Shown here one piece after another: positions 20,148 to 45,300 of a stretch of 64,000 bases of DNA (its first letter is position 1; each line of letters starts with the position of its first letter). Location: IMG/VR virus record IMGVR_UViG_3300033121_002118, positions 1-64,000 of that record. One strand, 5' to 3'. A program made the position numbers and the translations under genes. Under the pieces are notes generated by a model. The model saw only the letters and a program-made list of their open reading frames with translations, was not told the origin of the DNA and did no database searches. The stretch is from a virus. Lineage: Duplodnaviria > Caudoviricetes.

Positions 20148-20151
20148 CGGC

Positions 20152-30000: not shown

Positions 30001-31497
30001 CTCCCTGGAGCCCTGCACGCCCCCCAAGAAGCCCTTGATGAACATGTCGAAGAAGCCGCCCTGCATGGCTGAGCCGCTCTTCACCAGGCGCTCGATCGAG
30101 TCCGCCAGCTTCGACATGGCCTCGGCCTGCGACAGCTGCTTCCGCTCGACCTCGCCGCCCTTCTTGCGGACCTGATCGAGCGACACGCCCTGGTTCTTGA
30201 GCGAGAACACCATCTTGGCAGTGGCCTCGTCCAGGCCCGTGGTCTGCGACAGCAGCTTCAGCTGCTGCCTCGACATGTTGGCCGTGTCGACGCCCGCGCC
30301 CGCCAGCTGCTTGCGCAGCATCTCCACCTGCGTGGCAGGGTCCTGCGCGTTCATGAGCTCGAACGCGTCCACCATGACGCCGAAGGACTGGCCCAGCTTG
30401 GCCGCGTTCTCGGCGGCGGAGTCGAAGGTCTCGAACGTGTCCAGCGTGCCCGTGATCTTCTCGAGCTCGACCCCCAGCTTCCGCGCGTACACGGAGGCCT
30501 CGGCGATCTGGCGCACGGTCGCGCCCGCGAAGTGCTTCACGTCCGCGAAGGCCTTGCCCATGTCGCGTGAGATCAGCTTCGCGTCCACCTGGAAGGCGCG
30601 GCCCAGCTCCAGCGCGTACTTGGCGTTCTCGTTCAGGAAGGTCGACAGCCTCTGGCCGGTCGAGACCGCGAACTCGCCCATCGCCTTCATCTGCTCGTTC
30701 GACAGGCCCAGGGCCTTCTGGTACGCCAGTACCGCGCCGCCGTTCTCCCTGAACTCCTTGGTCAGGCGCCCGAACACCGCGCCCATCGCAGTGGCGACCT
30801 CGCGCAGGTAGTTGAGGCGCTCCGCCACCGTGCCGAAGACCTGCCAGGTCGACAGCCCGGTCTGTGAGAAGTTCTTCATGGACCGGGCGCCCTCGATCAC
30901 GGTGCCCGCGATGGGACCGCGCAGGGCCCCGAACTCCTTGCGCACGGCCTCGATCGCCTGCCGGAGCTCGTCCATGCCACCCGCGTTCTGGGCCATGTCG
31001 ATCAGGCCCTGGAACACCTTGAACGGGATCGCCAGGATCGCGGCCGAGACGTCGGTGATCCAGCCCAGGAGCCCCGTGAACATCGAGAACGAGGCCTTGC
31101 CGATGGCCGTGACGTTCTTCAGCCCCTGCCACAGCCCGCTCAGTGCCCCCGCGGTCGCGGTTGCGGACTTGGGCAGCTTCTTCTCCATCTGCTGCCCGAG
31201 CCTGCCCAGCTTGCGCTCGAGCGCGGTGGCCGCGCCCGCGGGCTCCTCGAGCGAGTCCACGATCTCCTTGGCGGACTTGCCCACCTCCTGCTCGAACGAC
31301 CTGAACTGCTTCGCGGCCTCGTCGGTCGAGGCGCCCGCCAGCGCGGCCGACAGCTGCTTGACCTTGTCGAGCTGCGTCTCCTGCGCCTGCGCGATCGCGC
31401 GGTGGTCCGCTGCCATGCGGGCCACCAGGGCCGCGAGCTTGCGGGTCATGTCGAGCTGGTCGGAGACCCCCTGCTTGGAGGCGTCGGCGGCAGGCAC
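26953..31497 (-). CDS. Tail tape measure protein
   Basis: 1514 aa, Ala/Gly/Leu-rich helical with hydrophobic stretches; tail-module position. Confidence 0.85.
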   Translation of the reverse strand: MPAADASKQGVSDQLDMTRKLAALVARMAADHRAIAQAQETQLDKVKQLSAALAGASTDEAAKQFRSFEQEVGKSAKEIVDSLEEPAGAATALERKLGRLGQQMEKKLPKSATATAGALSGLWQGLKNVTAIGKASFSMFTGLLGWITDVSAAILAIPFKVFQGLIDMAQNAGGMDELRQAIEAVRKEFGALRGPIAGTVIEGARSMKNFSQTGLSTWQVFGTVAERLNYLREVATAMGAVFGRLTKEFRENGGAVLAYQKALGLSNEQMKAMGEFAVSTGQRLSTFLNENAKYALELGRAFQVDAKLISRDMGKAFADVKHFAGATVRQIAEASVYARKLGVELEKITGTLDTFETFDSAAENAAKLGQSFGVMVDAFELMNAQDPATQVEMLRKQLAGAGVDTANMSRQQLKLLSQTTGLDEATAKMVFSLKNQGVSLDQVRKKGGEVERKQLSQAEAMSKLADSIERLVKSGSAMQGGFFDMFIKGFLGGVQGSREFWRIMMNIRVALRTVYMEGVKLGRVFVQVFPGVKDLLGGLADFFRPSKFKELAAKVRGVFEEFFRDLSSPNGKASFANLMKRLRTAFFDFFDKESTSGRRLLAGFEKVMGALSTIAADGIRWLAEQVTTGMRFVVDLLSGKVDLGSLTGAAGAGAGFVGQVLAPILKALQDSWPMFRDAAWDLLKALAGKVVDFVSSPEFRKAIEPALPVLAAVLFGPALGRALLAAGTQTIAQSALKALSGGGKAVEAAGRGTSAVNEAASAAQKASATTASPGADVLKAAGEQGKAAEGAVAATKGWGVKEAVALGLKLVAIAGAIAVGGVMLAGAVRAIVAILDGIDIKKTTVAMLAMAEMIAVSIPMLLAVKLAQRVGKPTEIIKGALVVGLMTVLVSGITYLVGKILDGFAPAQLTATGDVMLSMTGVFLGMVPLLLAAAAIGALMYGPQGLVIGALALGGFAVISAAVAAMASTTVEIVKVIAALQIDSSFKAKSDAFLGILRSLQSFADTFVRIAEASRPSFLELVTGSGSTFADNVDSVTRLVEAMIHGKDGRGGLVGLMETVKGIVLQMAALPGKSLEGARVFAETTTSLVELVRVITPPPEYYEAATDFIQQMSGGDQFQQIATDVSVYAAYMVKHVKDVSGIVKDLVAEFLKVDLPKEKAQQVTAVGGVFSTVSGVLKAVMPSPDVIRSFTSTLKDTSGVFSTDKEIRKFDSAGLVAFMNTLLDQVQQLLPIITGTVLKQIVAVGAGLKPEDAERVKVVGTAFGFVTSLVGSLNDFAKMSGNSTTTVVSNGVVTSIASQSKGLGELLMQLGSALPTVVSGAAMVVKALPTDEGFVKNVSTAGKLFGLLGEIPKLATTMREALASGGDASRESLSKTLTDLTTYGDFLVATAGVFKSGAITTGLKAVADMVKAANELDKALSDGNVAKLNVAAKLSNVAKAVGLGGSAKYTIQNKGVVVHIDLTVTMKADEVEKVVIQRKSSVIRDRLNHAQYDGSSQPSPIPDSPNSPSPALIE

Positions 31498-32493: not shown

Positions 32494-32727
32494 TCAAAGT
32501 CCGTGCTTTCGTCGTACGCTGCGCTTGATCTCATACAATGACTTGTTGAGATCGTTGAGACCCTGGTAGACGTCGCTATCGAACGTCTGCGCAGTGTCGA
32601 GCGCGGCGTCCAGGGCAGACTGGACGCCCGACAGAGCGGCGAGCATGTCCTCCTTTGAGGCACCCTCGCGCAGCCTCGCCGCCTCTTCCCTGATGATCCG
32701 TCCCAGCTCGCCCCTCGTGATCTGCAT
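32494..32727 (-). CDS. Small leader-family protein
   Basis: MQITRGELGRIIREEAARLREGA...; TANNTA 32733-32738. Confidence 0.8.
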   Translation of the reverse strand: MQITRGELGRIIREEAARLREGASKEDMLAALSGVQSALDAALDTAQTFDSDVYQGLNDLNKSLYEIKRSVRRKHGL

Positions 32728-32735
32728 GTTGGTAG

Positions 32736-33701
32736 CTATGCGTTCGCCACTCGGGCCAGGCACGCGGCTGGATCCCACTTGAGCTCCAGGTCGGTGACGC
32801 GCACCAGGCGCAGGCCCTGCCCCGCGAACCAGGAGTCCTGGGCACGATCGCGTTCCCGTGTGCCCAGGATGGCCTTGTCGCGCTCCTCCTGCGATTCCTG
32901 CAGCACATGCAGCGGTCGATCCAGGCCGTGCCAGTAGACGCCGTCGAACTGCACATACGTGCGCAGGCTCTTCACGTAGAAGTCGATCCGCCAGCCGTTG
33001 ACCCAGACCTGGGCCTCCACGTCCTCCTGGCCGAACCGCTCGATGAGCAATTGTCCGAACCGTTCCTCAGCCATCGAGATCTGCCGACCGATCGTGCCGT
33101 TTGCCTTCATCGAGTCCAGCGCTTTTTCACGTGCTTCGGGCGTGTGCGCAGCCTCCACCCCTGCACGGTGAACCTCAGGAAGCATCAAGACATGAGGCAC
33201 ACCGTAGCGCTCCATGTTGGTAGCACGGTAGCGCTCCTGCATCACAGGGCTCTTGGCAGGATGATCGACACCGTAGTTCTCGAACCAAGTCGCCCGCGCC
33301 TTCTCGTCGAAGTTCGCTGACTGCGTGTGCCAGTCCACGCCAAACTTCTCCTGGTTCGTCGCCCGTGCCTTCTCCTTGACGCTCTCGGCCTGCGACGACA
33401 CGGGCACGCCATAGCGCTCCACGTTGGTGGCACGGACCCTGCGCCGGATCGAGGCGTCCTTCAGCGGGTTGTCGACGCCGTAGCGCTCGACGAAGCGCTC
33501 GCGCTTCTTGACGTCTAGCGCGCCGCCCTTGTGTTGTAGAGTGCCCTGGCACTTCCTCGAACAGGCGTGGACGGAGGCACCTGCGATGTGCTGGAAGAAC
33601 CGCTTCTCGAAGGTGCGCTGGCAGGCGTCGCAGCGGAGGACGAGGGTGCGCTTGGGATAGTCGACGCGACGGGAAGGTTCAGACTTGATCTCAAGGAGCA
33701 C
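32736..33701 (-). CDS. Putative homing endonuclease (Zn finger, [RK]YG repeats, Vsr/DUF559-like nuclease)
   Basis: CDAC..CSRKC, repeated ERYGV, SMAE, IDFYV..YVQFDGVYWHG, LRLVRVTD. Confidence 0.8.
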   Translation of the reverse strand: MLLEIKSEPSRRVDYPKRTLVLRCDACQRTFEKRFFQHIAGASVHACSRKCQGTLQHKGGALDVKKRERFVERYGVDNPLKDASIRRRVRATNVERYGVPVSSQAESVKEKARATNQEKFGVDWHTQSANFDEKARATWFENYGVDHPAKSPVMQERYRATNMERYGVPHVLMLPEVHRAGVEAAHTPEAREKALDSMKANGTIGRQISMAEERFGQLLIERFGQEDVEAQVWVNGWRIDFYVKSLRTYVQFDGVYWHGLDRPLHVLQESQEERDKAILGTRERDRAQDSWFAGQGLRLVRVTDLELKWDPAACLARVANA

Positions 33702-33745
33702 ACACCAATGTATTGTGCGGACTCCTCAAAATAATCGCTGCCGCG

Positions 33746-34024
33746 CTATAGAGGCCACGGCACGCCCAGGGTTCTCTCGAACTCCTGGGCGCTGGCGCGC
33801 TTCAGGCCCAGCTTTTGCATGACGCTCTCGACAGAGGCCCCGGGCCTGCTGATCTCGTCCTGAAAGGCGCGCGAGGCCATCATGGCGTTGGCCACGGCAC
33901 GCACCTCTTCCTCCGTGCCTCGGACCTTGACATGGGTGGCGCGACCCACCAACCACGCGGCCACGGACGCGAAGAAGATCTTGCCCAGCAGGTTCAGGTG
34001 CAGCTCGTGCAGGCGCTTTGCCAT
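33746..34024 (-). CDS. Hypothetical virion-module protein
   Basis: 92-aa ORF, high GC3, ends GVPWPL. Confidence 0.75.
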   Translation of the reverse strand: MAKRLHELHLNLLGKIFFASVAAWLVGRATHVKVRGTEEEVRAVANAMMASRAFQDEISRPGASVESVMQKLGLKRASAQEFERTLGVPWPL

Positions 34025-34075
34025 GTCAGACCTCGTGGACGTCGCTCCACAGCTTCTGTGCAGCCGTTCCCATCG

Positions 34076-34342
34076 TCACTCCGCCGTGTCGTCCCCGCCG
34101 CCGAGGTCGAGCACGAACGACCTGAGCTCCTCGTCGATGCGCTCGAGCTCCTCGGCGTAGGGCGCCTCGAGCGCGCCGCGTGAGGCGAGCTGGGATGCCC
34201 GTTCGATCAGCGTGATCGCCTCATTCAGGAGCCGAATGACCAGGCCCTGGTCAGGTGCCTCGGGCATGCTGGCTTCGCTCTCGTGCAGACGCCGCGCCTC
34301 TTCCTTGACGATGCGCCGCAGCTGTCCCCTCGTGATCCTCAT
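34076..34342 (-). CDS. Small leader-family protein
   Basis: MRITRGQLRRIVKEEARRLHESE... (alternative start 34351). Confidence 0.8.
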   Translation of the reverse strand: MRITRGQLRRIVKEEARRLHESEASMPEAPDQGLVIRLLNEAITLIERASQLASRGALEAPYAEELERIDEELRSFVLDLGGGDDTAE

Positions 34343-34353
34343 CGTCTTCATCC

Positions 34354-34581
34354 TCACTCGAGCTCCGCCCGGAGCTCGTACAGTTCACCGTCGATCTTTT
34401 CGAGGCGGTTCATGAGCTTGGCGGACACGCCCGCCGCGGAACCCGTCCCGATCGCCTCGGAGCATGCCTCACGCAGGGCGTCGACGGCCGCCAGGAACGC
34501 ATGCCAGTCGCCCTGGGCCTCACGAAGCGCCGCTGCTTCCTCCAGAACCAGCCTCCGCAGGTGCCTCTTCGTGATGATCAA
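34354..34581 (-). CDS. Small leader-family protein
   Basis: TTG start after AGGAGG; MIITKRHLRRLVLEEAAALREAQ... Confidence 0.8.
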   Translation of the reverse strand: MIITKRHLRRLVLEEAAALREAQGDWHAFLAAVDALREACSEAIGTGSAAGVSAKLMNRLEKIDGELYELRAELE

Positions 34582-34590
34582 GCGGCCTCC

Positions 34591-34872
34591 TCATGCCCAC
34601 GCATAGCGCAGGCCGTTCCTGATCCCGTCGTTGATCGAGTCGCGGAGCATGGAGGCCTCCTGGGGCTCGCCCACGACGTAGTCGACGACCAGGTCGACCA
34701 GCTCGTCCACCTTGCGTGCCACGCCCGGATCGACGATCACGTCGGTGACGTCGGAGCTCGCTCCCTGCGAGCCTGGGCCCATCGGACCCGGCCGTTCCGA
34801 CCAGGCCTCGCGGATGTGCCTGCGCACCGCGCGTCGAAGTGCGGCCGTGCCGTGCTTGGGGGAAGTCGTCAT
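34591..34872 (-). CDS. Small leader-family protein
   Basis: ...ALRRAVRRHIREAW; TANNTA 34879-34884. Confidence 0.75.
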   Translation of the reverse strand: MTTSPKHGTAALRRAVRRHIREAWSERPGPMGPGSQGASSDVTDVIVDPGVARKVDELVDLVVDYVVGEPQEASMLRDSINDGIRNGLRYAWA

Positions 34873-34897
34873 CGGGACTACATATCGGCCTGACGGC

Positions 34898-35137
34898 TCA
34901 GCTGAAGCGCCGGAGCCTCGCGGGCACGTGGCTCCTGGCGCGGCCCTGGGCAGCCCGGACGTCGGGCGTGTTGCCGTGCAGGGCCCGGGTCGCGGTCGCG
35001 CCCTCCTCGGAGGTGCGCTGCAGCTCCCTGGAGACGCGCTCGATGAACCACCGCTTGTACGCGACGGGCAGCGTATACGCCTCTTTGTAGCAGAAGCCCC
35101 CGTAGTACATCAGCAGGAAGATGGGCTCGAGCAGCAC
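34898..35137 (-). CDS. gp51-like baseplate/tail assembly catalyst (possibly a frameshift extension of the upstream gene)
   Basis: IFLLMYYGGF.Y.EAYTLPV..KRWFIER. Confidence 0.7.
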   Translation of the reverse strand: MLLEPIFLLMYYGGFCYKEAYTLPVAYKRWFIERVSRELQRTSEEGATATRALHGNTPDVRAAQGRARSHVPARLRRFS

Positions 35138-35150
35138 CTGCGCCCTGTCG

Positions 35151-36038
35151 TCAGGCGTGAGGCCAAAGAAACTTGACGCCCATGGGCATGTCCACCTCCT
35201 CGGACGCGCCGCACTTCCTGCACTCGACCGCCTGCCGCATGCGGATGCCGGGCTCGCTCTCCTTGATGAAGGTCCTGAGGGCCAGGGAATCGCCCGCGCG
35301 CATGCCGTTCCTGACGAAGGCCGCGATCTTGGCCCTGTCGGTCACGCCTTCGATCGACACGATGGAGTGCAGCAGGTTGGTCGTGACCACCTGGTCCGCG
35401 GCGCCCACCAGGCCGTGCTTGCGCTGCTGCTCCGCGGTCGCCACGATCTCCTGCTCGTCCCTGCCTGTCAGGAACCGGAAGCACACCTTCTTGCCCGACC
35501 TCGGCAGCGTGAAGGCGAACAGGTTGCAACCCTCCTCGATGGGCCGCAGCTCCAGGGACCGCAGCGGCAGCTGCCCGAGGTTGAAGGTGGCGGGCGTGCG
35601 CTCGCCGCAGGCGGCGCAGTCGACCTCTGCCTCGTACTCAGGGCCGTAGCCCGTGATGCGGATGGCGACCACCAGCGCGTTCCTGTCGCCTGCCAGGAGC
35701 GAGGCCGGATCGACCCGGCGGTCCGCCAGGCACGACCTGATGAGCTCCGTGATGACCGTGCCCTTCTTCAGGAACGCGCGGGAGGTGAGGATGTCCTCCT
35801 CCCGCGCGGTCATGCCCTTGATCTCGACCGTGTCCACGCCCGCGAACGGGTGGCCGGGCTCATACGCGAGACCGCGTGAGGGCAGCGGCACGACCTCCGA
35901 GGGCAGCTCCAGCCCCCCGAAGTCCGCCTTCAGTTGCTCCACCGTGCTGACCGCTGGCATGCCCTGTGCCGACAGCGCCCCGGGCGGCGCGTAGGCGCCT
36001 TGAAAGACCGCGTTGCGCTGTTCCCTGTCGTCCGACAT
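35151..36038 (-). CDS. gp26-like baseplate hub/tail assembly chaperone
   Basis: VPLPSRG, MTAREEDILT, GDRNAL...RITGYG, CAACG, FTLP, FRFLTG.DE, CRKCG, FLWP. Confidence 0.8.
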   Translation of the reverse strand: MSDDREQRNAVFQGAYAPPGALSAQGMPAVSTVEQLKADFGGLELPSEVVPLPSRGLAYEPGHPFAGVDTVEIKGMTAREEDILTSRAFLKKGTVITELIRSCLADRRVDPASLLAGDRNALVVAIRITGYGPEYEAEVDCAACGERTPATFNLGQLPLRSLELRPIEEGCNLFAFTLPRSGKKVCFRFLTGRDEQEIVATAEQQRKHGLVGAADQVVTTNLLHSIVSIEGVTDRAKIAAFVRNGMRAGDSLALRTFIKESEPGIRMRQAVECRKCGASEEVDMPMGVKFLWPHA

Positions 36039-36193
36039 CGTCGTCCCTCCCATGCTTCCCCTGGCCGGACCTTACCGGGCGTCCGGCGCCCGTAAAAGAC
36101 GGGGCCACGTCGCCAAGAACGCAAGGAACTCGGTCAATGTGGCCCGTTGCTGTGGTTTAGAAGAAAAGGCCTGGGTCCAGGTCAATGACAGGA

Positions 36194-36664
36194 TCAGTGC
36201 TCGTCGTCCGGTCCCAGGAGGAGCCCGTCCCATTCTTTGGCCAGCTCCCGAAGGGTCTTCATGACGGCCTCGATCTTTTTTCGCAGCGCCGCCACCTCGC
36301 GACCCGAGATGCCCCCGAGCCTGTCCCTGTGCTCCTCGAGCGCGTCGGCGAAGTTTCGCATCTCGTCGCCGCCCTGCGCGGCCTCGAAGCTGCCGACGTC
36401 CTCGAGCGTCCGGGCTCCGCCTTCGCTGGATCTGGACGACCTCGACGAGGTACCGTTGAGACGATCTGCTTCCTTCGACTGCGCCAGGCTGCTGCGCGGT
36501 GTGATCCGAGGCGCGTTTTTCGGGCCATGACGACGACGCCCTGCTCCCTGCCGACGGGCCTCTTCACGTTCCCTGGCCGCCCCGAGGCCGCCCCGAGGCG
36601 CCTCCTGCAGCCTCGCCGCCTCTTCCCTGACAATCCGTCCCAGCTCGCCCCTCGTGATGATCAC
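36194..36664 (-). CDS. Leader-family protein
   Basis: GTG after AGGAGG; MIITRGELGRIVREEAARLQEAP... Confidence 0.8.
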   Translation of the reverse strand: MIITRGELGRIVREEAARLQEAPRGGLGAAREREEARRQGAGRRRHGPKNAPRITPRSSLAQSKEADRLNGTSSRSSRSSEGGARTLEDVGSFEAAQGGDEMRNFADALEEHRDRLGGISGREVAALRKKIEAVMKTLRELAKEWDGLLLGPDDEH

Positions 36665-36705
36665 AGCTGTCGTCCTCCTGCTCGCGTGCGAGCCAAAACT
36701 TCCCG

Positions 36706-37110
36706 TCATCCGTCGACGATCTCGACATAGTCGATGCTGCCGCTCCAGACGACGCGCTCACCGTGCACCAGGTACAGCTCTGTGCCCTTGCCCGTGTCGT
36801 CGGTCATGCTGTACCTGCGTCCGTCCCCGTCCACGGCCTCGAGACGGGCAGGCATGACGTTTGGACGATAAGGCGACACAGACGTCACGGTCAGACGCAG
36901 CGCGGGCTTGGGACGCTGACCCATGCGCTGCGTCGCAGGACGCACTGCGAAGGCGACGCCGGGCTGCAGCTGCGAAAATGAGCTGGCAGGACGGCCCCGC
37001 CTGCTCGTCCGCATGCGCTCACGGCCCTGGTTGGTCGGGGCACCAGCTTCCTTGATTCTCTTCGCTTCTTCGGCCACGATCACGCGCAGGGCACGCCTGG
37101 AGATCAGCAT
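36706..37110 (-). CDS. Leader-family protein
   Basis: MLISRRALRVIVAEEAKRIKEAG... Confidence 0.75.
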   Translation of the reverse strand: MLISRRALRVIVAEEAKRIKEAGAPTNQGRERMRTSRRGRPASSFSQLQPGVAFAVRPATQRMGQRPKPALRLTVTSVSPYRPNVMPARLEAVDGDGRRYSMTDDTGKGTELYLVHGERVVWSGSIDYVEIVDG

Positions 37111-37129
37111 ACGATAGCTGCTATCCGTC

Positions 37130-37546
37130 ATGGGAACGACGATGCAGGCCGCGGCCTTGCTCAGGGAGACGGTCAGGGGCATGGTGGCCGAGGCGAGGCC
37201 CAGGCGACCCAGCAGCGACGAGCGCCAGGCCGGCCAGGACGACAGGGAGGCGCTGGTGCGGTTCACGAGGCAGGCCCGACGGGCCCTGTCGGAGGTCGCC
37301 TACGCGTGGACCCCGCCCAGCGTCGACAGAGATCCGAGCGCCTACTGGAAGGTGTCGTGCGCGATCGTGCCGGAACGGGCCGCCGAGGCGGCCCAGACGC
37401 TCCTGGGCCTGGGCCTCAAGAAGGGTTGGGGCGGCCGGGGGACCACCCACTTCGAGGGCGCCCCTGACGGGATCGACGTGCAGCTGATGGCGTGGAAGAC
37501 GGGCGCCCGACTCACGTTCTCGAAGAGCACGCGCCTGCCGAACTAG
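37130..37546 (+). CDS. Leader-variant protein (LLRETVRGMVAE|A)
   Basis: Divergent from the 37110 gene; high GC3. Confidence 0.7.
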   Translation: MGTTMQAAALLRETVRGMVAEARPRRPSSDERQAGQDDREALVRFTRQARRALSEVAYAWTPPSVDRDPSAYWKVSCAIVPERAAEAAQTLLGLGLKKGWGGRGTTHFEGAPDGIDVQLMAWKTGARLTFSKSTRLPN

Positions 37547-37778
37547 CGAACAAGGCCTGCACGGCGCGCAGGGCGCGTCCGGCGCTGCGCCCCGCCCATG
37601 TGATCGACATGCCCTCGGTGGCCTTGACGGGCACCTGGTGCAGCTCGAGGAACGCGGCGAGCTCCCTGCCGGACGCCTCCAGCGAGAGCAGCCTCCCGTT
37701 CACGGCGGGAAACTGTCCGCCGAGCGCGCACGTCAGCACGGTACGGCGTCGGTCGATGTCTACGGTGATCTTGATCAT
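37512..37778 (-). CDS. Hypothetical protein (MIKITVDID...)
   Basis: High-GC3 frame; overlaps convergent gene end. Confidence 0.5.
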   Translation of the reverse strand: MIKITVDIDRRRTVLTCALGGQFPAVNGRLLSLEASGRELAAFLELHQVPVKATEGMSITWAGRSAGRALRAVQALFASSAGACSSRT

Positions 37779-37850
37779 GGTGGGCGTCCCGGACCAGACC
37801 ACGGTACACCGCGGCGGGGACGCCCCACACCCACCGCGTGGGTCGACGAA

Positions 37851-38153
37851 TCAGCGCTGCTTCCGCAGCGCCATCCGTGCCTTCGTGATGGCGTCCACGG
37901 CGACGTTGATGTGCTCGATCAGGCTCGTGTCAGAGCCCAGAGACTCGAGCGCCAACCCGAGCGAGTCTCGCGCATCGCCCAGGTGCTGCATCGTCGTCTG
38001 GGCCTCAGGCGTGAGGGGCGCAGATGGTCCGACCGCGGGTGTGCCGCGCTTTCGACGGCGCCCACCCATTCCAGGAGGCCTCTTTCCTGCCTCCTGCAGG
38101 CGCAGCGCTTCCTCGTGCACGACCCTTCGCAGCTCGCTCAGCCTGATCCTCAT
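37851..38153 (-). CDS. Small leader-family protein
   Basis: MRIRLSELRRVVHEEALRLQEAG...; TANNTA 38160-38165. Confidence 0.8.
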   Translation of the reverse strand: MRIRLSELRRVVHEEALRLQEAGKRPPGMGGRRRKRGTPAVGPSAPLTPEAQTTMQHLGDARDSLGLALESLGSDTSLIEHINVAVDAITKARMALRKQR

Positions 38154-38180
38154 GCCGTCTACCTATGCGTCCGCCGCGCC

Positions 38181-38468
38181 TTACGTCTCGGACTCGATGA
38201 GCTCACGCAGGTCGTCGACGATCGCGTCGAAGATTCCGCGGGCGAACCCGGATCCCGGATCGAGGACCTGGTCATACACGCCGGGAGGCAGGGCGTCGTT
38301 CACGTCGACCAGCTCCAAGACCCGCTGCATCATCCGAAAGAAATGGTCCTGGACGACCCTGTCGTGCATGGCCCTGTCGATCGGAACGGAGAGCGCCGCG
38401 TCGAGCGCCTGCAGACCCTCGATCTCTTCCTTGATGATCTTGACGAGCTCTGAGCGAGGAATGCGCAT
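38181..38468 (-). CDS. Small leader-family protein
   Basis: MRIPRSELVKIIKEEIEG...; TANNTA 38474-38479. Confidence 0.8.
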   Translation of the reverse strand: MRIPRSELVKIIKEEIEGLQALDAALSVPIDRAMHDRVVQDHFFRMMQRVLELVDVNDALPPGVYDQVLDPGSGFARGIFDAIVDDLRELIESET

Positions 38469-38476
38469 GCAGGTAG

Positions 38477-39334
38477 CTATGCCTCGGCCGCGTGCTCTTG
38501 GGCATGGCACGCCGAGCACAGCACGACCCCGCTGATGTTCCGGTCCAGGTGGTAGGTCGCAACCGCCTCCGCGACCGCGTGCTTCTTCTCGTGGTCGTCA
38601 CCGGGCTCCCCCAGCACACCCACGACCGCTCGGAGCACCTGCGAGAATCGCACTTCGTCGTGATGCACGTGGAGCTCGTCCGTCGATGGGCAGCCCGGGG
38701 TCGTGCACCGGAACCCGGCCGTGACCAGCTTAGGATAGGTCCACTTGCTGTAGAGATGGGAACGACACAAGGCCTGGAGGGCAGACACGCCGCCAGCCCA
38801 TTGCGAATGGGCGGATCCTGTGAGCGGCGTAATCGCACCCGTCCGCCACGAACGGGTCATCGTCGCGCCGCGTTCCTCACGTCGCTCTGGCGTGAAGTTC
38901 GCTGACTGCGTCTGTCCATAGGCAGCGACGCGTTCATCGGTCGCCTTGGTGAGGCCGCTGTTCCAGGTGGTCGCACCCTTCTCGAAGAGTTCTCGGCGCG
39001 TCTTCTGGCTTCGAGCCTGCACCGCATCGTTGTGGCCCCAGTTGTTTTTCACGCGCGAGACATGACCACGGATCCACTCCGTGAACCCGGCCTGGATGCC
39101 CATGAACTTCACTGCACCGCCACAACCGCACCTGCACGTGGGCCGGACGCCGGCGTGAAACAGTCGGACCCGAAGGTCCTCGGCCGTGCCCTTGTGGGCC
39201 TTGCGCCAGTGGACGCTCAGCGAGATGAGGTTGGAGTTCTCGTACGTGCAGGCAGGATCAGGACAGCGATGGGACGACACTTTCGACCTCCAGACACCAT
39301 TGTATGACGCCCAAAGACCGATGTATCTTGTCAT
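38477..39334 (-). CDS. HNH homing endonuclease with C2H2/CxCGCG modules (possible true start GTG 39280)
   Basis: CPDPAC..HWRKAH, CRCGCG, WNSGLTK, LHVHH..LCSACHAQEH. Confidence 0.82.
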   Translation of the reverse strand: MTRYIGLWASYNGVWRSKVSSHRCPDPACTYENSNLISLSVHWRKAHKGTAEDLRVRLFHAGVRPTCRCGCGGAVKFMGIQAGFTEWIRGHVSRVKNNWGHNDAVQARSQKTRRELFEKGATTWNSGLTKATDERVAAYGQTQSANFTPERREERGATMTRSWRTGAITPLTGSAHSQWAGGVSALQALCRSHLYSKWTYPKLVTAGFRCTTPGCPSTDELHVHHDEVRFSQVLRAVVGVLGEPGDDHEKKHAVAEAVATYHLDRNISGVVLCSACHAQEHAAEA

Positions 39335-39343
39335 ACAATCGTG

Positions 39344-39835
39344 TCAGAACTGCAGCACAGCGTTGTCGTAGCGGAGAGTCAAGGAGATCTCCACCGGGGT
39401 GCCGTCCTCGTACGTCAGCTCGCCGAAGTCGCAGTCGGCGATGAGGGTGCCCTTGATGTCCCAGAGCTGCACCACCGTGCCCACCGGATCGACCAGCTTG
39501 AGCTGCATGTCGCGCTTGTAGAAGTCGGCGTAGCCCGCCCTGCCTGACACGGACTCGAAGTGCAGGCGGATCCACTCCATCACCTGCTGCGCGCCCGAGG
39601 GCGCGATCGGGTCGTGGAGCGTGATCTGCATCGTGGAGAACTTGGTCTTGCCCGCCAGGTAGCGGTGCGAGTTCATCCACGGGATCTCGACCTCCTCGGT
39701 CGTGTACTGCGGCCGCTTCGCGGTCTTCAGGAGGTAGGCGTCGATGCCCTCGACCATGAGAATCCAGCGGTTTTTTCTGAGGGGCTCGAATTTATTCGGA
39801 ATCATCGAAGCCACATCAAGGGTCTCAGCAGGCAC
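39344..39835 (-). CDS. Tail tube protein (gp19-like)
   Basis: FEPLRKNRWIL, RYLAGK, ITLHDPIAPSGAQQVMEW, YADFYKRD, LTLRYD. Confidence 0.9.
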   Translation of the reverse strand: MPAETLDVASMIPNKFEPLRKNRWILMVEGIDAYLLKTAKRPQYTTEEVEIPWMNSHRYLAGKTKFSTMQITLHDPIAPSGAQQVMEWIRLHFESVSGRAGYADFYKRDMQLKLVDPVGTVVQLWDIKGTLIADCDFGELTYEDGTPVEISLTLRYDNAVLQF

Positions 39836-39874
39836 GGCAGTTCTCCTTTTTGCGACCTCAGCAATCGCACGGAC

Positions 39875-39880
39875 TAACTA
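39875..39880 (-). promoter_or_regulatory. TANNTA motif upstream of tail tube
   Basis: TAGTTA on minus strand, followed by a leader with AGGAG RBS. Confidence 0.55.
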
Positions 39881-39944
39881 CGTCCGAACGATCATTCACA
39901 TTCACACCGAAACGACCAACAGCAGACAAGCAACAATAGAACCG

Positions 39945-41672
39945 ATGGGTGCAAGAAAAGGAGTACCGCTTGAAGCGATCGAATGTCCGGCTGGCTGCGG
40001 ATTTAGCACAAAGCGCCTGACTGCGTTTGACGCTCACCTCGTGACTGCGCACGGATGCACTTCGCAGGCGCTTTGGGACCAACTCAACGGTGGGTCGACC
40101 AAGTGCGGATGCGGATGCGGTGCGACCACGCAATGGTTGAATTGGCGACATGGCTACGCGCGGTTTCTCAGGGGCCACAACGCAAACCTCGTTGCCGCGC
40201 ACGGTGCACAGGAAGCCGCAAGGATCGCTGCAGCACGAGCAGGCAAGCTACGGGGCCGCCCAGGCTGGGCAAAAGGCCTAACCAAAGACAACGACGAACG
40301 AGTCAAGCGCCGAGCGGAAAAGACAGCGATCGGTCGGCGCAGGGCGTTCACAGACGGCAAGCTGACGGCTTGGAACAAGGGACTGACCAAGGAAAAAGAT
40401 CCGCGCATCGCAGAAGCAGCAACGAAGATTCACGAGACGTATGCACGTGGCGAGCGCACTCCGTGGAATAAGGATGCCAACGCCCAGACCGATCCAAAGA
40501 TCGCTGCTGTCAATGACAGGCTTCGTGAACGCTACGCGAACGGCGAACTGACGATCTGGAGCAAAGGCAGGACGGTCATTGATGATCCCAGGATCGCCAA
40601 GACATGGGCTAAACGAGACCCGGTGCGCGAGTACGCGCATGTCAGGTTCACTGAACAGCAGATCGAGGAACGGCTATCAGGCAACACGCGTCTCCGTTTT
40701 GATTCAGTCGAAGGGTACAAGAACATCTACAGCACGTCGGTCAACGTCCACTGCGCGACGTGCGCATGGACGAGCAAGATCACGCTTGCATTGGCGATGG
40801 GCGACCGCTGTCCCAGCTGCGATGCTTCGGGTTCGAAGGCTCAGAGCGAGCTTTTAAGCTGGATCGAGAGCCTCGGTTACGTCGCCAAGAGCAACGTCGT
40901 CGGCATCGTCGGAGGCAGGCAGCAGATCGACATCTTTGTTCCAGAAAAAATGCTGGGGATCGAATATAACGGCCTGTACTGGCACAGCGAACAGGCAGGA
41001 AGGGACTCGTTCTACCACGCCCGAAAGACGGCGCGATGCACGGCCTTGGGCATCCGGCTCATGCACGTGTTCGAGGACGACTGGCGCGACCGCCGGCCCA
41101 TCGTGGAGTCGCTGATCAGGCACAGGCTGGGTCTCACGCCGAGAAAGGTCTCGGCCCGGGAGTGTGAGCTCAGGGCGCTGTCCGCCAAGGAGCGGCGTGC
41201 CTTCTTCGAGGCCAACCACCTGGACGGCGACGTGGCAGCGAACGAGTGCCTGGGGTTGGTCCTCAGCGGGGAGGTCGTCATGGCCCTCTCCCTCCGTAAG
41301 CCATTCCACCGTGCCCATTCCGATCGGCTCGAGGTCGCCCGGTCGTGTCCGGCGCTCGACACAGTGGTGCGGGGCGGACTCTCCAGGTTGATCAAGGCCG
41401 CGCTCACCCGTGCCAAGGAGCAGAGCAGAGCCGGGCTCATCACGTACGTCGACGGACGCATCGGAGACGGCGCAGGTTACATCAAGGCCGGCCTCAGAAA
41501 AACCGGAGAAACACCGCCTAGGTTCTGGTGGACAGACTTCGACCGGCGCTTCAACCGCTTCAAGTTCAAGGCGAACGCGGCGGAGGGCCTGAGCGAGCGT
41601 GAGGTCGCGGCCCAGGCTGGCGTGGTCAAGGTGTGGGGATGCTCGAACGTCGTGCTGACGATCGACGCGTGA
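39945..41672 (+). CDS. Hef-like / Vsr-like homing endonuclease (575 aa)
   Basis: CGCGCG, WNKGLTK repeats, IDIFVP..GIEYNGLYWHS, HVFEDDW, ARECE, FFEANHLDG, TYVDGR. Confidence 0.8.
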   Translation: MGARKGVPLEAIECPAGCGFSTKRLTAFDAHLVTAHGCTSQALWDQLNGGSTKCGCGCGATTQWLNWRHGYARFLRGHNANLVAAHGAQEAARIAAARAGKLRGRPGWAKGLTKDNDERVKRRAEKTAIGRRRAFTDGKLTAWNKGLTKEKDPRIAEAATKIHETYARGERTPWNKDANAQTDPKIAAVNDRLRERYANGELTIWSKGRTVIDDPRIAKTWAKRDPVREYAHVRFTEQQIEERLSGNTRLRFDSVEGYKNIYSTSVNVHCATCAWTSKITLALAMGDRCPSCDASGSKAQSELLSWIESLGYVAKSNVVGIVGGRQQIDIFVPEKMLGIEYNGLYWHSEQAGRDSFYHARKTARCTALGIRLMHVFEDDWRDRRPIVESLIRHRLGLTPRKVSARECELRALSAKERRAFFEANHLDGDVAANECLGLVLSGEVVMALSLRKPFHRAHSDRLEVARSCPALDTVVRGGLSRLIKAALTRAKEQSRAGLITYVDGRIGDGAGYIKAGLRKTGETPPRFWWTDFDRRFNRFKFKANAAEGLSEREVAAQAGVVKVWGCSNVVLTIDA

Positions 41673-41684
41673 ACGTCGACGTGC

Positions 41685-41963
41685 TCAGTGCGTCTCGTTC
41701 CACGTGTCGATGATGTCGCCGACGACTCGTCCTACTTCGTCGACGGCACCCGTCCTGATCTCGTCAGCGTCTTCGTCGCCGGCGACGCCTTGCTGCACGA
41801 GCTCGTCCACGATCAGCTCAGCGACGCTCTCGATCGCCTCCGTGAGTTCGTGGCTCCACCCGCCAGCCTCCTCGTGCAGGGCGCGCCTGCCATTCTTGAT
41901 GTGCGAGAACTCTTCCTTGACCAGCTCGCGCAGGCCCCGTGCCGTCAACCTCTTTGCAGCCAT
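41685..41963 (-). CDS. Small leader-family protein
   Basis: MAAKRLTARGLRELVKEEF...ALHEEA. Confidence 0.8.
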   Translation of the reverse strand: MAAKRLTARGLRELVKEEFSHIKNGRRALHEEAGGWSHELTEAIESVAELIVDELVQQGVAGDEDADEIRTGAVDEVGRVVGDIIDTWNETH

Positions 41964-41979
41964 CGCATCTTCTCCTGCC

Positions 41980-42186
41980 TCATGCCTCGAACTGGCCCCG
42001 CAGTGCCTCGAGCACCTGCACGGGCGTGATTTGGTGTGCCTTCGCGGCGTCCAGGACGTCGTCCAGGAGGTTGTCGAAGTCCTCGGAGGACTCGAACGAC
42101 CCGCGCCCCGCCGGGTCAGGACCCATGCCCAGGCGGCCCGCTTCTTCCTTGACGATGCGCCGCAGCTGTCCCCTCGTGATGATCAT
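41980..42186 (-). CDS. Small leader-family protein
   Basis: MIITRGQLRRIVKEEAGRL... Confidence 0.8.
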   Translation of the reverse strand: MIITRGQLRRIVKEEAGRLGMGPDPAGRGSFESSEDFDNLLDDVLDAAKAHQITPVQVLEALRGQFEA

Positions 42187-42380
42187 GCTCTGCCCCTCGT
42201 GAGCTCCACCGCGACCCCCATCACTTCATCGATGCCGAACCCCTTGCGACGCAGGGCCTCCAGCGCGTCCAGCAGGTCGCCGAACTCGGGCTCAGACTGT
42301 GGGTTGCCCCTGGGCCCCTCTCCCAGTCGTGAGGCCTCCTCGCGGACGAGGCGCCGGAGCTGTCCCCTCGTGATCCGCAT
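42183..42380 (-). CDS. Small leader-family protein
   Basis: MRITRGQLRRLVREEASRLGEG...; overlaps sheath stop. Confidence 0.8.
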   Translation of the reverse strand: MRITRGQLRRLVREEASRLGEGPRGNPQSEPEFGDLLDALEALRRKGFGIDEVMGVAVELTRGRA

Positions 42381-45300
42381 CAGGGCACCTGGTTCAGGCT
42401 GTTGGCCACCACGAAGTCGAGGCTGACGAACTCGACGCTCTTCGTGGGCTGCACGAAGATCTTGCCCCGGATCGTGTTGTTCTCCACGTCTGCCTGCGTC
42501 GTCGTGGACGTGTCGATCTTGACCAGGAACCGGGTCAGGCCCTGCAGCGCCTGGATGCGCGCCAGCTTGGGCTTGACCGCGTCAGAGAACCGGGCCAGGG
42601 TCGCCTCCCTGTTGGGCTCGAACACGATCGTCTGCGCGATCAGGCGCACCTGGCGCCTGATCTCGATCAGCAGGCGCCGGACGTTGATCCGGTCCAGGGC
42701 CGAGGCGGCGGCCTGCAACGTCTTCTGGCCCCAGACCACCACGCCGCCCTTCGGGTTGGTGCCCGAGGTCGCGGTGCCCGGGAAGGCCACGATCGGGTTG
42801 ATCGAGGCGTCGTACAGGGCGTCCATGTTGTCCTTGGACAGCTTGACCCGAGCCTCCAGGGCGGTCGTGAGCGAGCCCCGGGTGTTGCCCGCAGGCGCGA
42901 ACCAGGGCTGGCCCAGGGCGTCGTTCAAGGCGATCGCGCCCAGGACAGCCACGCTGGGCGGCGCGACCACGTTGGTGCCCGTGGTCGGGTCGGGCATGAC
43001 CACGTCCGGAAAGTAGGCGGCAGAGAAGGAGTTGTCGAGCGCCCTGTCCACGAACGACGCCACGGTCGCGGTGACGCTGGGCAGCTGCTGGTCAGTCGTC
43101 ACCAGATCGCCCGCGTCGTCGTACTGCTCCGGATCCATGACGTAGAGGGCGTCGAAGCGCTCGCGCACGGCCTCTGCGGCCGCGTCTGTCACGATCGGAT
43201 GCCTGATGCCGGGCAACACCAGGAGCTGGATGTCGACGTTCACCGTGTTCTGCATGATCTCGAGCGCCTTGGCGTAGGCCCTGACGTTCGGTCCCATGTT
43301 GCGGCCCCTGTTGGTCGCGTCCATGTCGTTCGTGACGGCCGTGTTGGTGAGGGCAGCCTCCTGCGCGTCGAACACGTTGACACCGTCGAAACCACCCTGG
43401 GCGAAGAACGTGAACTTCGCGAAGCGCCGGTTGGCCTGCGTCAGGTCGGCGACCCTGAAGCCCCGGGTCTTCGCGGAATCGCTGACCACCACGTCGCCGC
43501 TCCGGACGTAGACCGCGGCGTCCCACTCCTGGGGATCGGCGTCGCCCGTGGAGGCGGTGACGACCTGCAGGTTCTCGAGCGTGAAGCCGTTGCGGCAGAA
43601 GCGGTCGGCATCCATGACGCCGTTCGCGTCTGTGTCAGCGATGCCCGCGTTGTCGCCCTCGGCAAAGTTGACCGCGTCTGTCGCGAAGCGCGGGAAGAAC
43701 GCCGCGAACGACCCCAGCGACTCGTTGGCCTGCGTCGAGGCGTTGGGCGTCGTCAGGCTCGTCACGTGCTCGAAGTGGACGCCCCAGTACAGGAGCGGGT
43801 TCACGCTCACCTTCGCGCCTGAGCCCGCCGTGATGTTGGTCCGCATGGGCACCGGAGGAGTCACGGCACGCTTGAGCACGTCCGAGGCACCCATCTGCGC
43901 GCTCGGCGGCGAGGTCATGGGTGCGGAGCCCGAGGTCACCAGGTGGGTCACGCCGCGGAAGCCCATGGGCAACGCGGTCGGGTCCACAGACTGGCCGTCC
44001 ACCTGGCTCGAGACCTCGACCCTGATGAGGTTGGAGCGGTTCGGATAGCTGCCCTCGATCACCAGCTTCTGGGCACTCTCGGTCCGATCGAAGTCGTAGA
44101 AGGCATGCAGGTCGCCGATCACCTTCGCGATGTACCTGTCGCTCGAGGGATCCAGCGACAGCTGCCGCCACTGCTCCACGGGACGCACGTCCGAGTCCCT
44201 GTCGCTCCACTCACGCACGATCAGGTCGAAGGTGCCGTAGCGGTTGGCCGGATCGCTCGAGGGTGCGATGTTCTCGACAGAGAACTTGACGGCGGTCGAG
44301 GGGCCCGCGCCCGCATCGATCGTGTGCAGCCGGAAGAGGTCGACCCGCTGGCCGCCGAAGCGCTGGGACGTGACCCAGGGCGTCACCGCGCTCGAGAACC
44401 TGTCCTCGAAGCTCTCGTAGTTGGGCACGGTGGCCCCCCCGGTGTTCCTGGCCAGCGCGCCGGTCGTCACGAACGCGGCGTGCTCGGCGCCGCCGAGAGA
44501 GGCGGAGACGCCGCCCGAGCCCGACACGGCCGCGGTCAGGCCCGAGCCCGTGAGGGCCGCGGTCGCCGGGTGTAGGTCCCAGTGGGCATACAGGTAGTGT
44601 CCCGCGCGCTGGTACAGCAGTGGATCCCTGTTGAGGGCGTTCACGAAGTAGTTGGGCGCCGTCATGTCGAACGAGGCCGTGATGGCGCTCGGGTACAGCG
44701 GGTCCGTGCCCTGGTGCCCGTTCAGCAGCAGCACGAACTCCTGCTTGGCCGTGCCTGCCTGCGACAGCACGACGGCACCAAAGTGCGAGCCCTGGGCGCT
44801 GTGCTCGGTCGCCACCAGCGTGGGCCCAGGCAGGGCAGAGGCCGTGACGGACGAGGACAGCCTGAGGATCACGCCCGAGGGTGCCATCAGGACGCCCCTG
44901 ACGATGGGCACCGAGGAGCTCACGACGGGGGTGACGCCGCCCACGCCCTGCAGCCCTGCTGAGCTGAAGACTGTGGACCCGGCGGACTCGGACATGAAGC
45001 AGCCCAGGAAGTAGGTGCGGCCCAGAGACGCGCCCGAGCCCGAGGTGGCGAACTGGTTCGCAGTCAGCTGTCCCGTCGTGCCCTGGGGCTGCTGCTCGCC
45101 CACCACGAAGCCCGCCTCGTTGACGCGGCCCGGAAAGCTCCCGTCCGTGTCACGGCGGAGCCCATCGCCCACGCCCAGCACCCGGAGGTACGTCAGGGCG
45201 GTGGCGCGGCGGAGCCACTCGTGCGCGGCCAGGGGACCGAACTTCTCGCCGTCGGTCGGACCGAACTTGGCCGTGAAGTCGTCCACCACGCCCACCGTGA

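What the first reader, a model, noticed from the sequence alone, without database searches (positions are those of the whole stretch)
32670..42180. The leader is shared as DNA, including wobble positions: evidence of recent grafting onto new payloads
Seen: 34299-34336 and 42143-42180 are 38/38 identical. 32670-32721 and 36607-36658 are 50/52 identical. Similar tracts lie at 4955-4983, 25776-25804 and 42358-42374. The codons AGG-GGA/AGG-GGC are kept, and identity stops at or within the leader's end while the downstream payloads are unrelated. Inference: leader-coding DNA acts as a short homology platform, so the phage RecA/UvsX-like recombinase can capture, swap or delete payload cassettes.
Basis: partly seen in the sequence, partly recalled or inferred. 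Interest (0 to 1): 0.72.

Follow-up and report, generated by a model that had tools for sequence, protein, structure and literature searches.

The report
Phage cargo genes swap at leaders
An uncultured giant T4-like phage starts about twenty unrelated small genes with the same 22-residue leader, and comparison with close relatives shows that whole gene bodies have been deleted, inserted and exchanged by crossovers inside or at the end of that leader's DNA, an extension of a principle known from phage T4.

Summary
34299-34336 equals 42143-42180 (38/38), and 32670-32721 matches 36607-36658 at 50/52. The tracts encode the N-terminal leader (consensus MKITxxQLRRIIxEEAxRLxE) of minus-strand small genes whose bodies give no BLASTP match to each other.

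Across all 153 leader pairs, silent-site identity is not clearly above codon bias: 0.537 observed, against 0.545 or 0.428 depending on the null. The rare GGA and GAA codons are partly a general gene-start effect. Only a few pairs stand out; the 38-nt run has P<=1/2000.

The decisive evidence is comparative. Four related metagenomic phages (80-98% identical flanks) differ from the window by cassette gains and losses whose junctions make hybrid leaders. This happens three times. They also differ by clean payload replacements that begin at the leader's end, twice. Five of 15 block ends against the closest relative fall in leaders, which cover 4.5% of the region.

The role of the RecA/UvsX-like enzyme is untested and the junction homologies are short (7-21 nt). 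Homing endonucleases and microhomology deletions also act here. The leader is probably a T4-style capsid-targeting propeptide, which is inferred only.

This scan had noted similar leader systems in other genomes.

The parts
34277..34342 (-). Leader of gene Y (34076-34342, 88 aa). It contains the 38-nt tract 34299-34336.
   Evidence: Codons 1-16 are 48/48 identical to the leader of a different gene (X, L090:2239) in a close relative. After that the sequence follows that relative's Y gene, so this is a hybrid leader.
42121..42186 (-). Leader of gene S2 (41980-42186, 68 aa). It contains the 38-nt tract 42143-42180.
   Evidence: It is 43/48 identical to the Y leader, but only 36/48 to its own payload-ortholog's leader in L084.
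42315..42380 (-). Leader of gene S1 (42183-42380, 65 aa), directly after the sheath gene's stop codon.
   Evidence: The start ATG CGG matches the extra gene Z of L179. From codon 8 on it matches L179's S1. The crossover lies within a shared 17-nt stretch.
32662..32727 (-). Leader of gene 32494-32727 (77 aa). It contains the 52-nt tract 32670-32721.
   Evidence: It pairs with 36607-36658 at 50/52 (P=9e-5). Relatives carry other payloads in this slot.
36599..36664 (-). Leader of gene 36194-36664 (156 aa). It contains the 52-nt tract 36607-36658.
38403..38468 (-). Hybrid leader of gene 38181-38468 (95 aa).
   Evidence: Codons 1-12 match L179:8612. From codon 11 on the sequence matches L179:8839. 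The crossover lies in ATCATCA. The 70-aa cassette between those two genes in L179 is missing from the window.
38088..38153 (-). Leader of gene 37851-38153 (100 aa).
   Evidence: In contig L175 (flanks 94-98% identical) the leader is 100% identical up to ...RLQE. The payload is then unrelated (73 aa vs 100 aa), and identity returns about 25 nt after the stop codon.
37045..37110 (-). Leader of gene S7 (36706-37110, 134 aa).
   Evidence: The same leader carries a different payload in L179. The same payload carries other leaders in L084, in L176 and in contigs of two further studies.
34516..34581 (-). Leader of gene 34354-34581 (75 aa, TTG start).
   Evidence: The L090 ortholog has a 7-residue deletion inside the leader.
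41898..41963 (-). Diverged leader of gene S3 (41685-41963, 92 aa).
25793..25953 (-). Copy 2 of a 161-bp exact repeat. It holds the 3' end of the tape measure gene, the intergenic stretch and the first 10 leader codons, and it precedes gene 25088-25822 (244 aa).
   Evidence: exact identity that ends inside the leader (CAG vs TAG). In the source run the repeat lies at about twice the depth of its flanks (34.3 against 15.7-20.7).
26864..27024 (-). Copy 1 of the 161-bp repeat. It precedes leader gene 26555-26893, which has an in-frame TAG at 26861-26863.
25973..26506 (-). Leader gene (177 aa) lying between the two 161-bp repeats.
   Evidence: Its body matches the N-terminal half of a 407-aa leader protein of L084. 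The body of 26555-26893 matches that protein's C-terminal end.
4924..4989 (-). Truncated solo leader (21 codons, then a stop). It contains the tract 4955-4983.
32736..33701 (-). Homing-endonuclease-like gene (321 aa) ending 8 nt upstream of the leader gene that starts at 32727.
   Evidence: It is absent from L179, L090 and L084. The surrounding segment 33775-31718 has only local matches of 75-82% identity to L179, against 91-95% in the flanks.
38477..39334 (-). HNH-type endonuclease-like gene (285 aa) ending 8 nt upstream of the leader gene that starts at 38468.
   Evidence: It has a 63%-identical homolog in L084, and L179 carries a different 546-aa gene here. The HNH motif was read by eye; there is no Pfam hit.
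10581..11813 (-). RecA/UvsX-like recombinase gene.
   Evidence: PF00154, E=1.5e-61.
42380..45436 (-). Tail sheath gene, used as the conserved anchor for synteny.
26953..31497 (-). Tape measure-like gene (1514 aa), the conserved anchor on the other side.

Best explanation
The tracts encode the N-terminal leader of a large family of small late-strand proteins. The consensus is M-[KR]-I-T-x-x-Q-L-[RK]-[RQ]-I-[IV]-[KR]-E-E-[AV]-x-R-L-x-E-[AGS], followed by a Pro/Gly/Ser/Arg-rich linker and then an unrelated body.

About 15 copies of this ~50-65-nt sequence lie in the same orientation within 20 kb, between the sheath gene and the tape measure gene. They therefore act as dispersed direct repeats.

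Shown:
- Crossovers between two leaders, in one genome or between co-infecting relatives, delete or insert the cassette between them and leave a hybrid leader.
- Paired exchanges replace one body by another, from the leader's end to the next gene.
- Leaders of different genes have become alike in the lineage of G000 (the window's 104,860-bp contig), L179 and L090, while the same genes' leaders in L084 differ from one another.

Inferred:
- Only in-frame leader-body fusions survive. This sharpens the association between junctions and leaders.
- The leader is a capsid-targeting propeptide in the manner of T4, removed by the phage's gp21-type head protease at the L-x-E site. Exchanging everything after that site would then swap the mature cargo while keeping its address tag.
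- Which enzyme makes the joints is unknown. The short homologies (7-21 nt exact, 42-46 of 48 overall) fit strand annealing or template switching as well as RecA/UvsX strand invasion.
For: Hybrid leaders at cassette indels:
- Window Y leader = L090 X-leader codons 1-16 (48/48), then L090 Y. Gene X is present in four contigs from two sources, L090-L093.
- Window S1 leader = the start of L179 gene Z plus L179 S1 from codon 8.
- Window gene 38468 = L179:8612 leader codons 1-12 plus L179:8839.

Payload swaps in near-identical backgrounds:
- L175 vs the window at gene 38153. The leader is 100% identical and the bodies are unrelated.
- L179 vs the window at S7.
- The S7 body is found with three or more different leaders.

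Cassette X sits after the sheath gene in L084 but about 9 kb away in L090.

Breakpoint enrichment: 5 of 15 internal block ends against L179 fall in leader intervals, which cover 4.5% of the region. My binomial estimate is about 4e-4.

Concerted pattern: leaders of Y, S2 and X are 42-46/48 identical within G000/L090, but 28-33/48 among the payload-orthologs in L084. G000-L084 silent sites are near saturation (codon identity 0.59-0.72).

One end of the 161-bp exact repeat lies inside a leader.

Family scale: 7,237 clusters at 50% identity match the leader profile.

Function:
- A Peptidase_S77 head protease is encoded.
- L-x-E-[AGS] closes 22 of 41 distinct leaders.
- The capsid protein has VLRE|S a few residues from the position aligned to the T4 gp23 cleavage site.
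- The T4 rule L/I-x-E and the capsid-targeting-tag concept are taken from PMC9026906 and PMC3012670.
Against: - Family-wide silent-site identity is at codon-bias level under one of the two nulls.
- GGA and GAA are favoured at gene starts in general.
- One junction has only 7 nt of exact homology, and one deletion variant uses 10-nt microhomology outside any leader. Homology-independent joining plus selection for in-frame fusions could therefore give part of the pattern.
- The direction of each event (gain or loss) is unresolved.
- All genomes compared are metagenomic assemblies, and no read-level recombinants were seen; only k=31 contigs were available.
- Neither packaging nor cleavage of any leader protein has been shown.
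Confidence: 0.72

Rival explanations
1. Old gene family with no special recombination. The leader peptide is kept by purifying selection. Its DNA looks alike because of strong codon bias plus selection for purine-rich, unstructured gene starts. The bodies differ only through fast divergence.
For: - Codon identity over all 153 leader pairs is 0.537, against 0.545 expected.
- GAA and GGA are about threefold enriched in the first 24 codons of non-leader genes.
- GAA at the first Glu is kept in L084 as well.
- Leader RNA is less folded than shuffled controls (z up to +2.3).
Against: - Hybrid leaders at three indels.
- Unrelated bodies of different length behind a 100%-identical leader, with 94-98% identical flanks.
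- The 38-nt exact run: 1 of 2000 and 0 of 3000 simulations.
- Leader similarity follows the genome, not the gene.
Confidence: 0.07
2. Homing endonucleases and illegitimate joining drive the turnover. Double-strand breaks near leader genes are repaired from co-infecting relatives and bring in neighbouring DNA. Junctions appear in leaders mainly because only in-frame leader fusions are viable, not because the leader is a preferred crossover site.
For: - Four endonuclease-like genes end within 10 nt upstream of a leader gene's start: 21284-21892, 32736-33701, 38477-39334 and 60346-61209.
- The segment 33775-31718 around one of them has only local matches of 75-82% identity to L179, against 91-95% in the flanks.
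- A variant carries an 803-nt deletion with 10-nt microhomology.
- One leader junction has only 7 nt of homology.
Against: - No endonuclease gene lies next to the Z/S1 indel, the X/Y indel or the gene-38153 swap.
- Two junctions lie in shared stretches of 17-21 nt.
- Leader homogenisation among distant slots needs homology-guided copying.
Confidence: 0.15
3. Assembly artefact: metagenome assemblers jumped between identical leaders and so created false deletions and swaps.
For: Contigs built with k=31 from the source run break exactly at the 38-nt repeat, at 34307-34328 and 42151-42172.
Against: - Each variant arrangement recurs in several contigs from different samples and assemblers: L084-L089, L090-L093 and L179/L180.
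- The repeats (48 nt or less) are shorter than the final k-mers usually used. This point rests on general knowledge and was not checked for these assemblies.
- The only path that uses every source-run contig once is the window's order.
- Swapped bodies are real, distinct sequences.
Confidence: 0.03

Closest known systems
Capsid targeting sequence (CTS) of phage T4 internal proteins IPI, IPII, IPIII and Alt, at the polymorphic internal-protein loci of T-even phages
   Same: - A short N-terminal tag is shared by otherwise unrelated proteins.
- The tag ends where a gp21-type head protease cuts (L/I-x-E).
- The bodies are highly diverse between related phages (more than 30 internal-protein variants).
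- The tag has been proposed as an evolutionary device for loading varied proteins into the capsid (PMC3012670, PMC9026906, PMC2839356).
   Different: - The sequence and length differ: about 22 residues here against 10-19 in T4.
- There are 19 copies in 105 kb (28% of the genome), spread through the tail and head modules, rather than two small loci.
- Plasticity of the T-even loci was attributed to flanking promoter/stem-loop elements (PMC2839356). Here the junctions lie in the coding leader itself.
- Packaging and cleavage are not shown here.
[quoted passage not shown] 2010, PMC2839356; Comeau et al. 2014, PMC4122927)
   Same: - Short dispersed direct repeats in hyperplastic regions.
- Insertions, deletions and replacements between about 95%-identical phages end in the repeats.
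- Circular excision products were proposed as vectors. The 910-bp insert flanked by 161-bp exact repeats here would fit integration of such a circle.
   Different: - The repeat here is protein-coding, at gene 5' ends on the late strand. It is not an intergenic promoter-terminator.
- Many leader genes abut or overlap the preceding gene (TGATG, ATGA).
- The leader RNA shows no stable stem-loop.
C-terminal swapping in polymorphic toxin loci (Rhs and CDI systems with orphan toxin cassettes). This comparison rests on general knowledge and was not tested here.
   Same: A conserved coding segment precedes a hypervariable body. Recombination in the conserved segment displaces or swaps bodies, and partial or silent copies lie nearby.
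   Different: - Those are bacterial and far larger, and each body is paired with an immunity gene.
- No homology to this family.
- The conserved segment here is an N-terminal tag of about 22 residues.

Membership tests
T4-type capsid targeting propeptide (CTS) proteins | The tag sits at the extreme N-terminus of otherwise unrelated proteins. | tested here: met
   - The profile's first column follows the start Met in 29 of 41 distinct leaders; most others have a Val/Leu start or a 3-4-residue extension.
- The bodies give no BLASTP match to each other.
- All 64 hits in related loci are on the structural-gene strand.
T4-type capsid targeting propeptide (CTS) proteins | The tag ends in the head-protease site L/I-x-E, with cleavage after Glu. 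| tested here: inconclusive
   - [LIVM]-x-E-[AGSTV] lies at profile columns 16-26 in 22 of 41 leaders, and [IV]-[KR]-E-E is present in nearly all.
- Payload swaps begin right after ...RLQE and ...IKEAG.
- No cleavage data exist.
T4-type capsid targeting propeptide (CTS) proteins | The phage encodes a gp21-type prohead protease. | tested here: met
   PF03420 (Peptidase_S77) matches G000:66665-67093 at E=1.1e-23, above the curated cut-off.
T4-type capsid targeting propeptide (CTS) proteins | Sequence relationship to the T4 tag. | tested here: inconclusive
   - No Pfam or PHROG family links them.
- The length differs: 22 residues against 10-19 (PMC9026906).
- No direct alignment to T4 proteins was run.
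T4-type capsid targeting propeptide (CTS) proteins | The proteins are packaged in the capsid, the tag is removed, and the cargo is injected. | not testable with these tools
   This needs virion proteomics of an isolate. No cultured relative was found: tblastn against 50,697 phage records gave nothing.
PeSL-type shuffling cassettes | An intergenic strong promoter plus a stem-loop terminator. | tested here: not met
   The junctions are inside coding leaders. Neighbouring genes overlap or abut. Leader RNA has no stable fold (z from -0.8 to +2.3).
PeSL-type shuffling cassettes | Indels and replacements between close relatives end in the repeated motif. | tested here: met

The most novel reading that the evidence does not exclude
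The leader is a dual-purpose module: an address tag for capsid loading and, through its DNA, the attachment site of an integrase-free cassette system. The system would comprise:
- active cassettes;
- silent cassettes, meaning leader genes switched off by a single nonsense codon inside the leader (26861-26863 TAG; two more at G000 78999 and 90851) whose bodies stay open, and which could be reactivated by leader conversion;
- fused multi-cassette polyproteins, which are seen in public proteins;
- homing endonucleases parked directly upstream of leader genes, which would make the breaks that drive exchange between co-infecting phages.
Probability: 0.15. Interest if true: 0.8.

Novelty: new variant of a known kind. 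Interest (0 to 1): 0.62.

Why it matters
Injected or capsid-borne phage proteins are front-line weapons against host defences. How phages renew that arsenal quickly is an open question.

Here the unit of exchange can be read directly from genomes. The address tag stays in place, and everything after the likely protease site is replaced.

The leader profile marks at least 7,237 distinct protein clusters in public data, and none of the payloads scanned here matched a known family. It is therefore a ready handle for cataloguing a very large pool of candidate delivered effectors.

It also shows that a coding sequence, and not only regulatory cassettes, can organise modular shuffling in T4-like phages.

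Tried and rejected
- Pfam and PHROGs scans of 10 leader proteins and about 15 payloads gave only sub-threshold noise.
- The ESM Atlas returned only unnamed viral clusters.
- megablast and tblastn against deposited phage genomes found no match for the region, for a leader protein, or for low-GC relatives of it.
- An exact degenerate DNA pattern for the leader found nothing in IMG/VR; it was too strict.
- A literature search for the motif as text returned only unrelated papers. Repoila et al. 1994 is not held.
- Complex prediction of the leader (residues 1-35) with the putative scaffold protein returned no answer. It is neither support nor evidence against.
- Read laying had only k=31 contigs, which break at the leader repeats, so read-level recombinants could not be sought. 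Most short-sided 'joints' in the source run are cross-matches between leader paralogs.
- The quartet test for conversion between 32727 and 36664 had too few informative sites: 1, 0, 0. The same holds for Y/S2 against L084: 1, 2, 0.
- I considered a window-specific conversion at S2 codon 10, where the window has CGC and L179 has AAG. I dropped it because L084 also has CGC.
- No tRNA gene in the window could suppress the in-frame TAG.


Full report
**What the DNA is**

The window is the first 64 kb of a 104,860-bp IMG/VR virus contig (G000). It has 66% G+C, and CheckV rates it 28% complete. It comes from a distant T4-like myovirus. The genes identified are:
- a sheath gene at 42380-45436 and a tube gene at 39344-39835;
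- a 1514-aa tape measure-like gene at 26953-31497;
- a gp23-type capsid protein and a Peptidase_S77 head protease;
- a RecA/UvsX-like gene at 10581-11813.

Nearly all genes lie on the minus strand.

**The observation**

All stated identities are exact. The tracts are the first ~22 codons of small minus-strand genes. A profile finds 19 copies in the contig.

From 41 distinct leaders in this phage and its relatives, the consensus is M-[KR]-I-T-x-x-Q-L-[RK]-[RQ]-I-[IV]-[KR]-E-E-[AV]-x-R-L-x-E-[AGS]. A Pro/Gly/Ser/Arg-rich stretch follows.

With the leader removed, the 24 proteins give no BLASTP match to each other. Neither the proteins nor their bodies match any Pfam or PHROG family.

**Is the DNA identity more than chance?**

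*The family as a whole.* Over all 153 leader pairs, codons are identical at 53.7% of same-residue positions. Whole-gene codon usage predicts 54.5%. Codon usage of the first 24 codons of 52 non-leader genes predicts 42.8%. The family as a whole is therefore old, with silent sites largely randomised.

*The 'rare' codons.* These are weak evidence of recency.
- GGA and GAA make up 23% and 24% of Gly and Glu codons at the starts of non-leader genes, against 7% and 9% elsewhere.
- GAA at the first Glu is kept even in L084, a relative whose silent sites are near saturation against G000.
- The leader RNA folds less stably than shuffled controls. This fits selection for open, purine-rich gene starts.

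*Particular pairs.* A few pairs are exceptional. The 38-nt exact run arose in 1 of 2000 and 0 of 3000 simulations.

Protein look-ups led to four related metagenomic phages that cover the same locus:

| Locus | Source | Identity to the window |
|---|---|---|
| L179 | 199-kb contig | sheath 97.8% nt, tape measure 94.8% |
| L090-L093 | four contigs | tape measure 94% |
| L175 | 1-kb contig | flanks 94-98% |
| L084-L089 | from a 294-kb contig | about 80% |

Three cassette gains or losses have their junction inside a leader and leave a hybrid leader:
1. L090 carries an 82-aa leader gene X between the orthologs of 34354-34581 and 34076-34342. The window lacks X. Its Y leader equals X's leader for codons 1-16 (48/48) and then follows L090's Y gene. 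L179 shares this state.
2. L179 carries a 92-aa leader gene Z between the sheath gene and S1. The window's S1 begins like Z (ATG CGG) and follows L179's S1 from codon 8. The switch falls within a shared 17-nt stretch.
3. The window's gene 38468 joins leader codons 1-12 of L179:8612 to L179:8839 at ATCATCA. It thereby lacks the 70-aa cassette that L179 and L084 both carry.

Two clean payload replacements start at the leader's end:
- In L175 the leader of gene 38153 is identical through ...RLQE. The body is then unrelated and shorter, and identity returns about 25 nt after the stop codon.
- At S7, L179 has the same unusual leader followed by another body.

The converse also occurs. The S7 body is found behind different leaders in L084, in L176 and in contigs of two further studies.

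Cassette X lies directly after the sheath gene in L084 but about 9 kb away in L090.

Against L179, 5 of 15 internal ends of collinear blocks fall within leader intervals, which make up 4.5% of the 20.5 kb. My binomial estimate is about 4e-4.

Leader similarity follows the genome rather than the gene. The Y, S2 and X leaders are 42-46/48 identical within G000/L090. The leaders of the same genes in L084 are 28-33/48 identical to one another.

The 161-bp exact repeat (25793-25953 = 26864-27024) flanks a 910-bp insert that holds two leader genes. It ends inside the leader, and in the source run it lies at about twice the flanking depth.

**Other forces in the same region**

- A homing-endonuclease-like gene (32736-33701) is absent from the relatives. 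It sits in a segment (33775-31718) that has only local matches of 75-82% identity to L179, against 91-95% in the flanks. That pattern is what import together with the endonuclease gene would give.
- One variant in another study deletes 803 nt using 10-nt microhomology, with no leader involved.
- Junction 3 above has only 7 nt of exact homology.

Leader-guided exchange is thus one of several processes. Selection for in-frame fusions must also sharpen the pattern.

**How it most likely works**

Dispersed, same-sense copies of the leader DNA pair during the intense recombination-dependent replication typical of T4-like phages. That such replication occurs is established knowledge; it was not tested here.

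Exchange between two copies removes, adds or replaces what lies between them. The enzyme responsible is unknown. The recombinase gene exists, but the homologies are short.

**What the leader is for (inferred)**

- It is strictly N-terminal, and its genes lie on the late, structural strand, within the tail and head modules.
- It ends in L-x-E-[AGS] in about half the copies. That is the cutting rule of the T4 head protease (PMC9026906).
- The phage encodes such a protease.
- Its capsid protein has VLRE|S a few residues from the position that aligns with the T4 gp23 cleavage site.

This matches the T4 capsid targeting sequence concept, in which diverse injected defence-countering proteins share only a tag (PMC3012670, PMC9026906).

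In T-even phages, however, shuffling was attributed to flanking promoter/stem-loop elements (PMC2839356, PMC4122927). Here the coding tag itself carries the junctions.

**Scale and novelty**

The leader profile matches 7,237 clusters at 50% identity among 1.84 billion representatives. Many of the best hits carry two or three leaders in one protein. Deposited phage genomes gave no match.

Other first-stage and follow-up notes of this scan describe similar leader systems in other uncultured giant phages. Those notes are not independent evidence.

I class the finding as a new variant of a known kind.

Noticed in passing
window 26861-26863; G000 about 90825-90827 and about 78970-78972 (outside the window): Three of the 19 leader genes carry a single in-frame stop inside the leader, at codons 9-11 (TAG, TGA, TAG). 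The bodies stay open for 102, 109 and 76 codons, with GC3 of 0.61, 0.90 and 0.80. They could be fresh pseudogenes or silent cassettes. Stops inside bodies would go unnoticed, so no enrichment can be claimed.
   Followed up: partly
window 21284-21892, 32736-33701, 38477-39334, 60346-61209: Four endonuclease-like genes each end within 10 nt upstream of (or overlap) the start of a leader or leader-like gene: an EndoVII type, a DUF7487/REase-like type, an HNH-like type and a REase-fold type. Only the GIY-YIG gene at 19256-20161 does not.
   Followed up: partly
proteins P0009, P0012, P0013, P0015, P0020: Public metagenomic proteins contain two or three full leaders in one open frame (leader-body-leader-body). 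The internal Met is retained, often after ...E-S or ...G-K. These are fused cassettes or polyproteins.
   Followed up: partly
G000 68088-71567 (outside the window): The portal gene (1159 aa) appears to contain an intein-like insert with an HNH-like part. After the insert, ...VVSHN|T is followed by portal sequence. This was read by eye only.
   Followed up: no
window 25842-25824, 26913-26895; G000 93741-93723: An identical 19-nt stretch, AAAGGTCGATAGGTAGGAC, lies just before three leader genes that start MAK/MAR. It contains the TAnnTA box that sits 4-7 nt before many start codons (e.g. 14084, 21279, 32727, 38153, 38468, 60349). This may be a late promoter with little or no 5' untranslated leader.
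   Followed up: partly
window 25142-25944: A contig from another study is 100% identical on both sides but lacks these 803 nt, with 10 nt of microhomology at the joint. The deletion removes most of the 244-aa leader gene and one copy of the 161-bp repeat.
   Followed up: partly
window 26555-26893 and 25973-26506 vs L084:16778-18001: One 407-aa leader protein of L084 corresponds to two separate window genes in reversed order. Its C-terminal 74 residues lie behind one leader, and its N-terminal ~200 residues (with a CxxCxGxG-type Cys cluster) lie behind another.
   Followed up: partly
window 42380-45436 and 45588-48614: Two adjacent sheath-sized genes (1018 and 1008 aa) share a 137-nt stretch at 71% identity (42610-42746 vs 45821-45957). 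This may be a tandem pair of sheath paralogs.
   Followed up: no
L084:10726-11170: In L084 the leader (10726 onward) and the body that matches window gene 36194-36664 (L084 10847-11170) lie in different frames. The gene is either frameshifted or miscalled.
   Followed up: no
window 34780-34872: The leader of gene 34591-34872 exists in two very different versions. G000 and L179 share one (…LRRAVRRHIRE…), while L090 and L084 share the other (MTIKKIT.EQFRR…). This grouping cuts across overall relatedness.
   Followed up: partly
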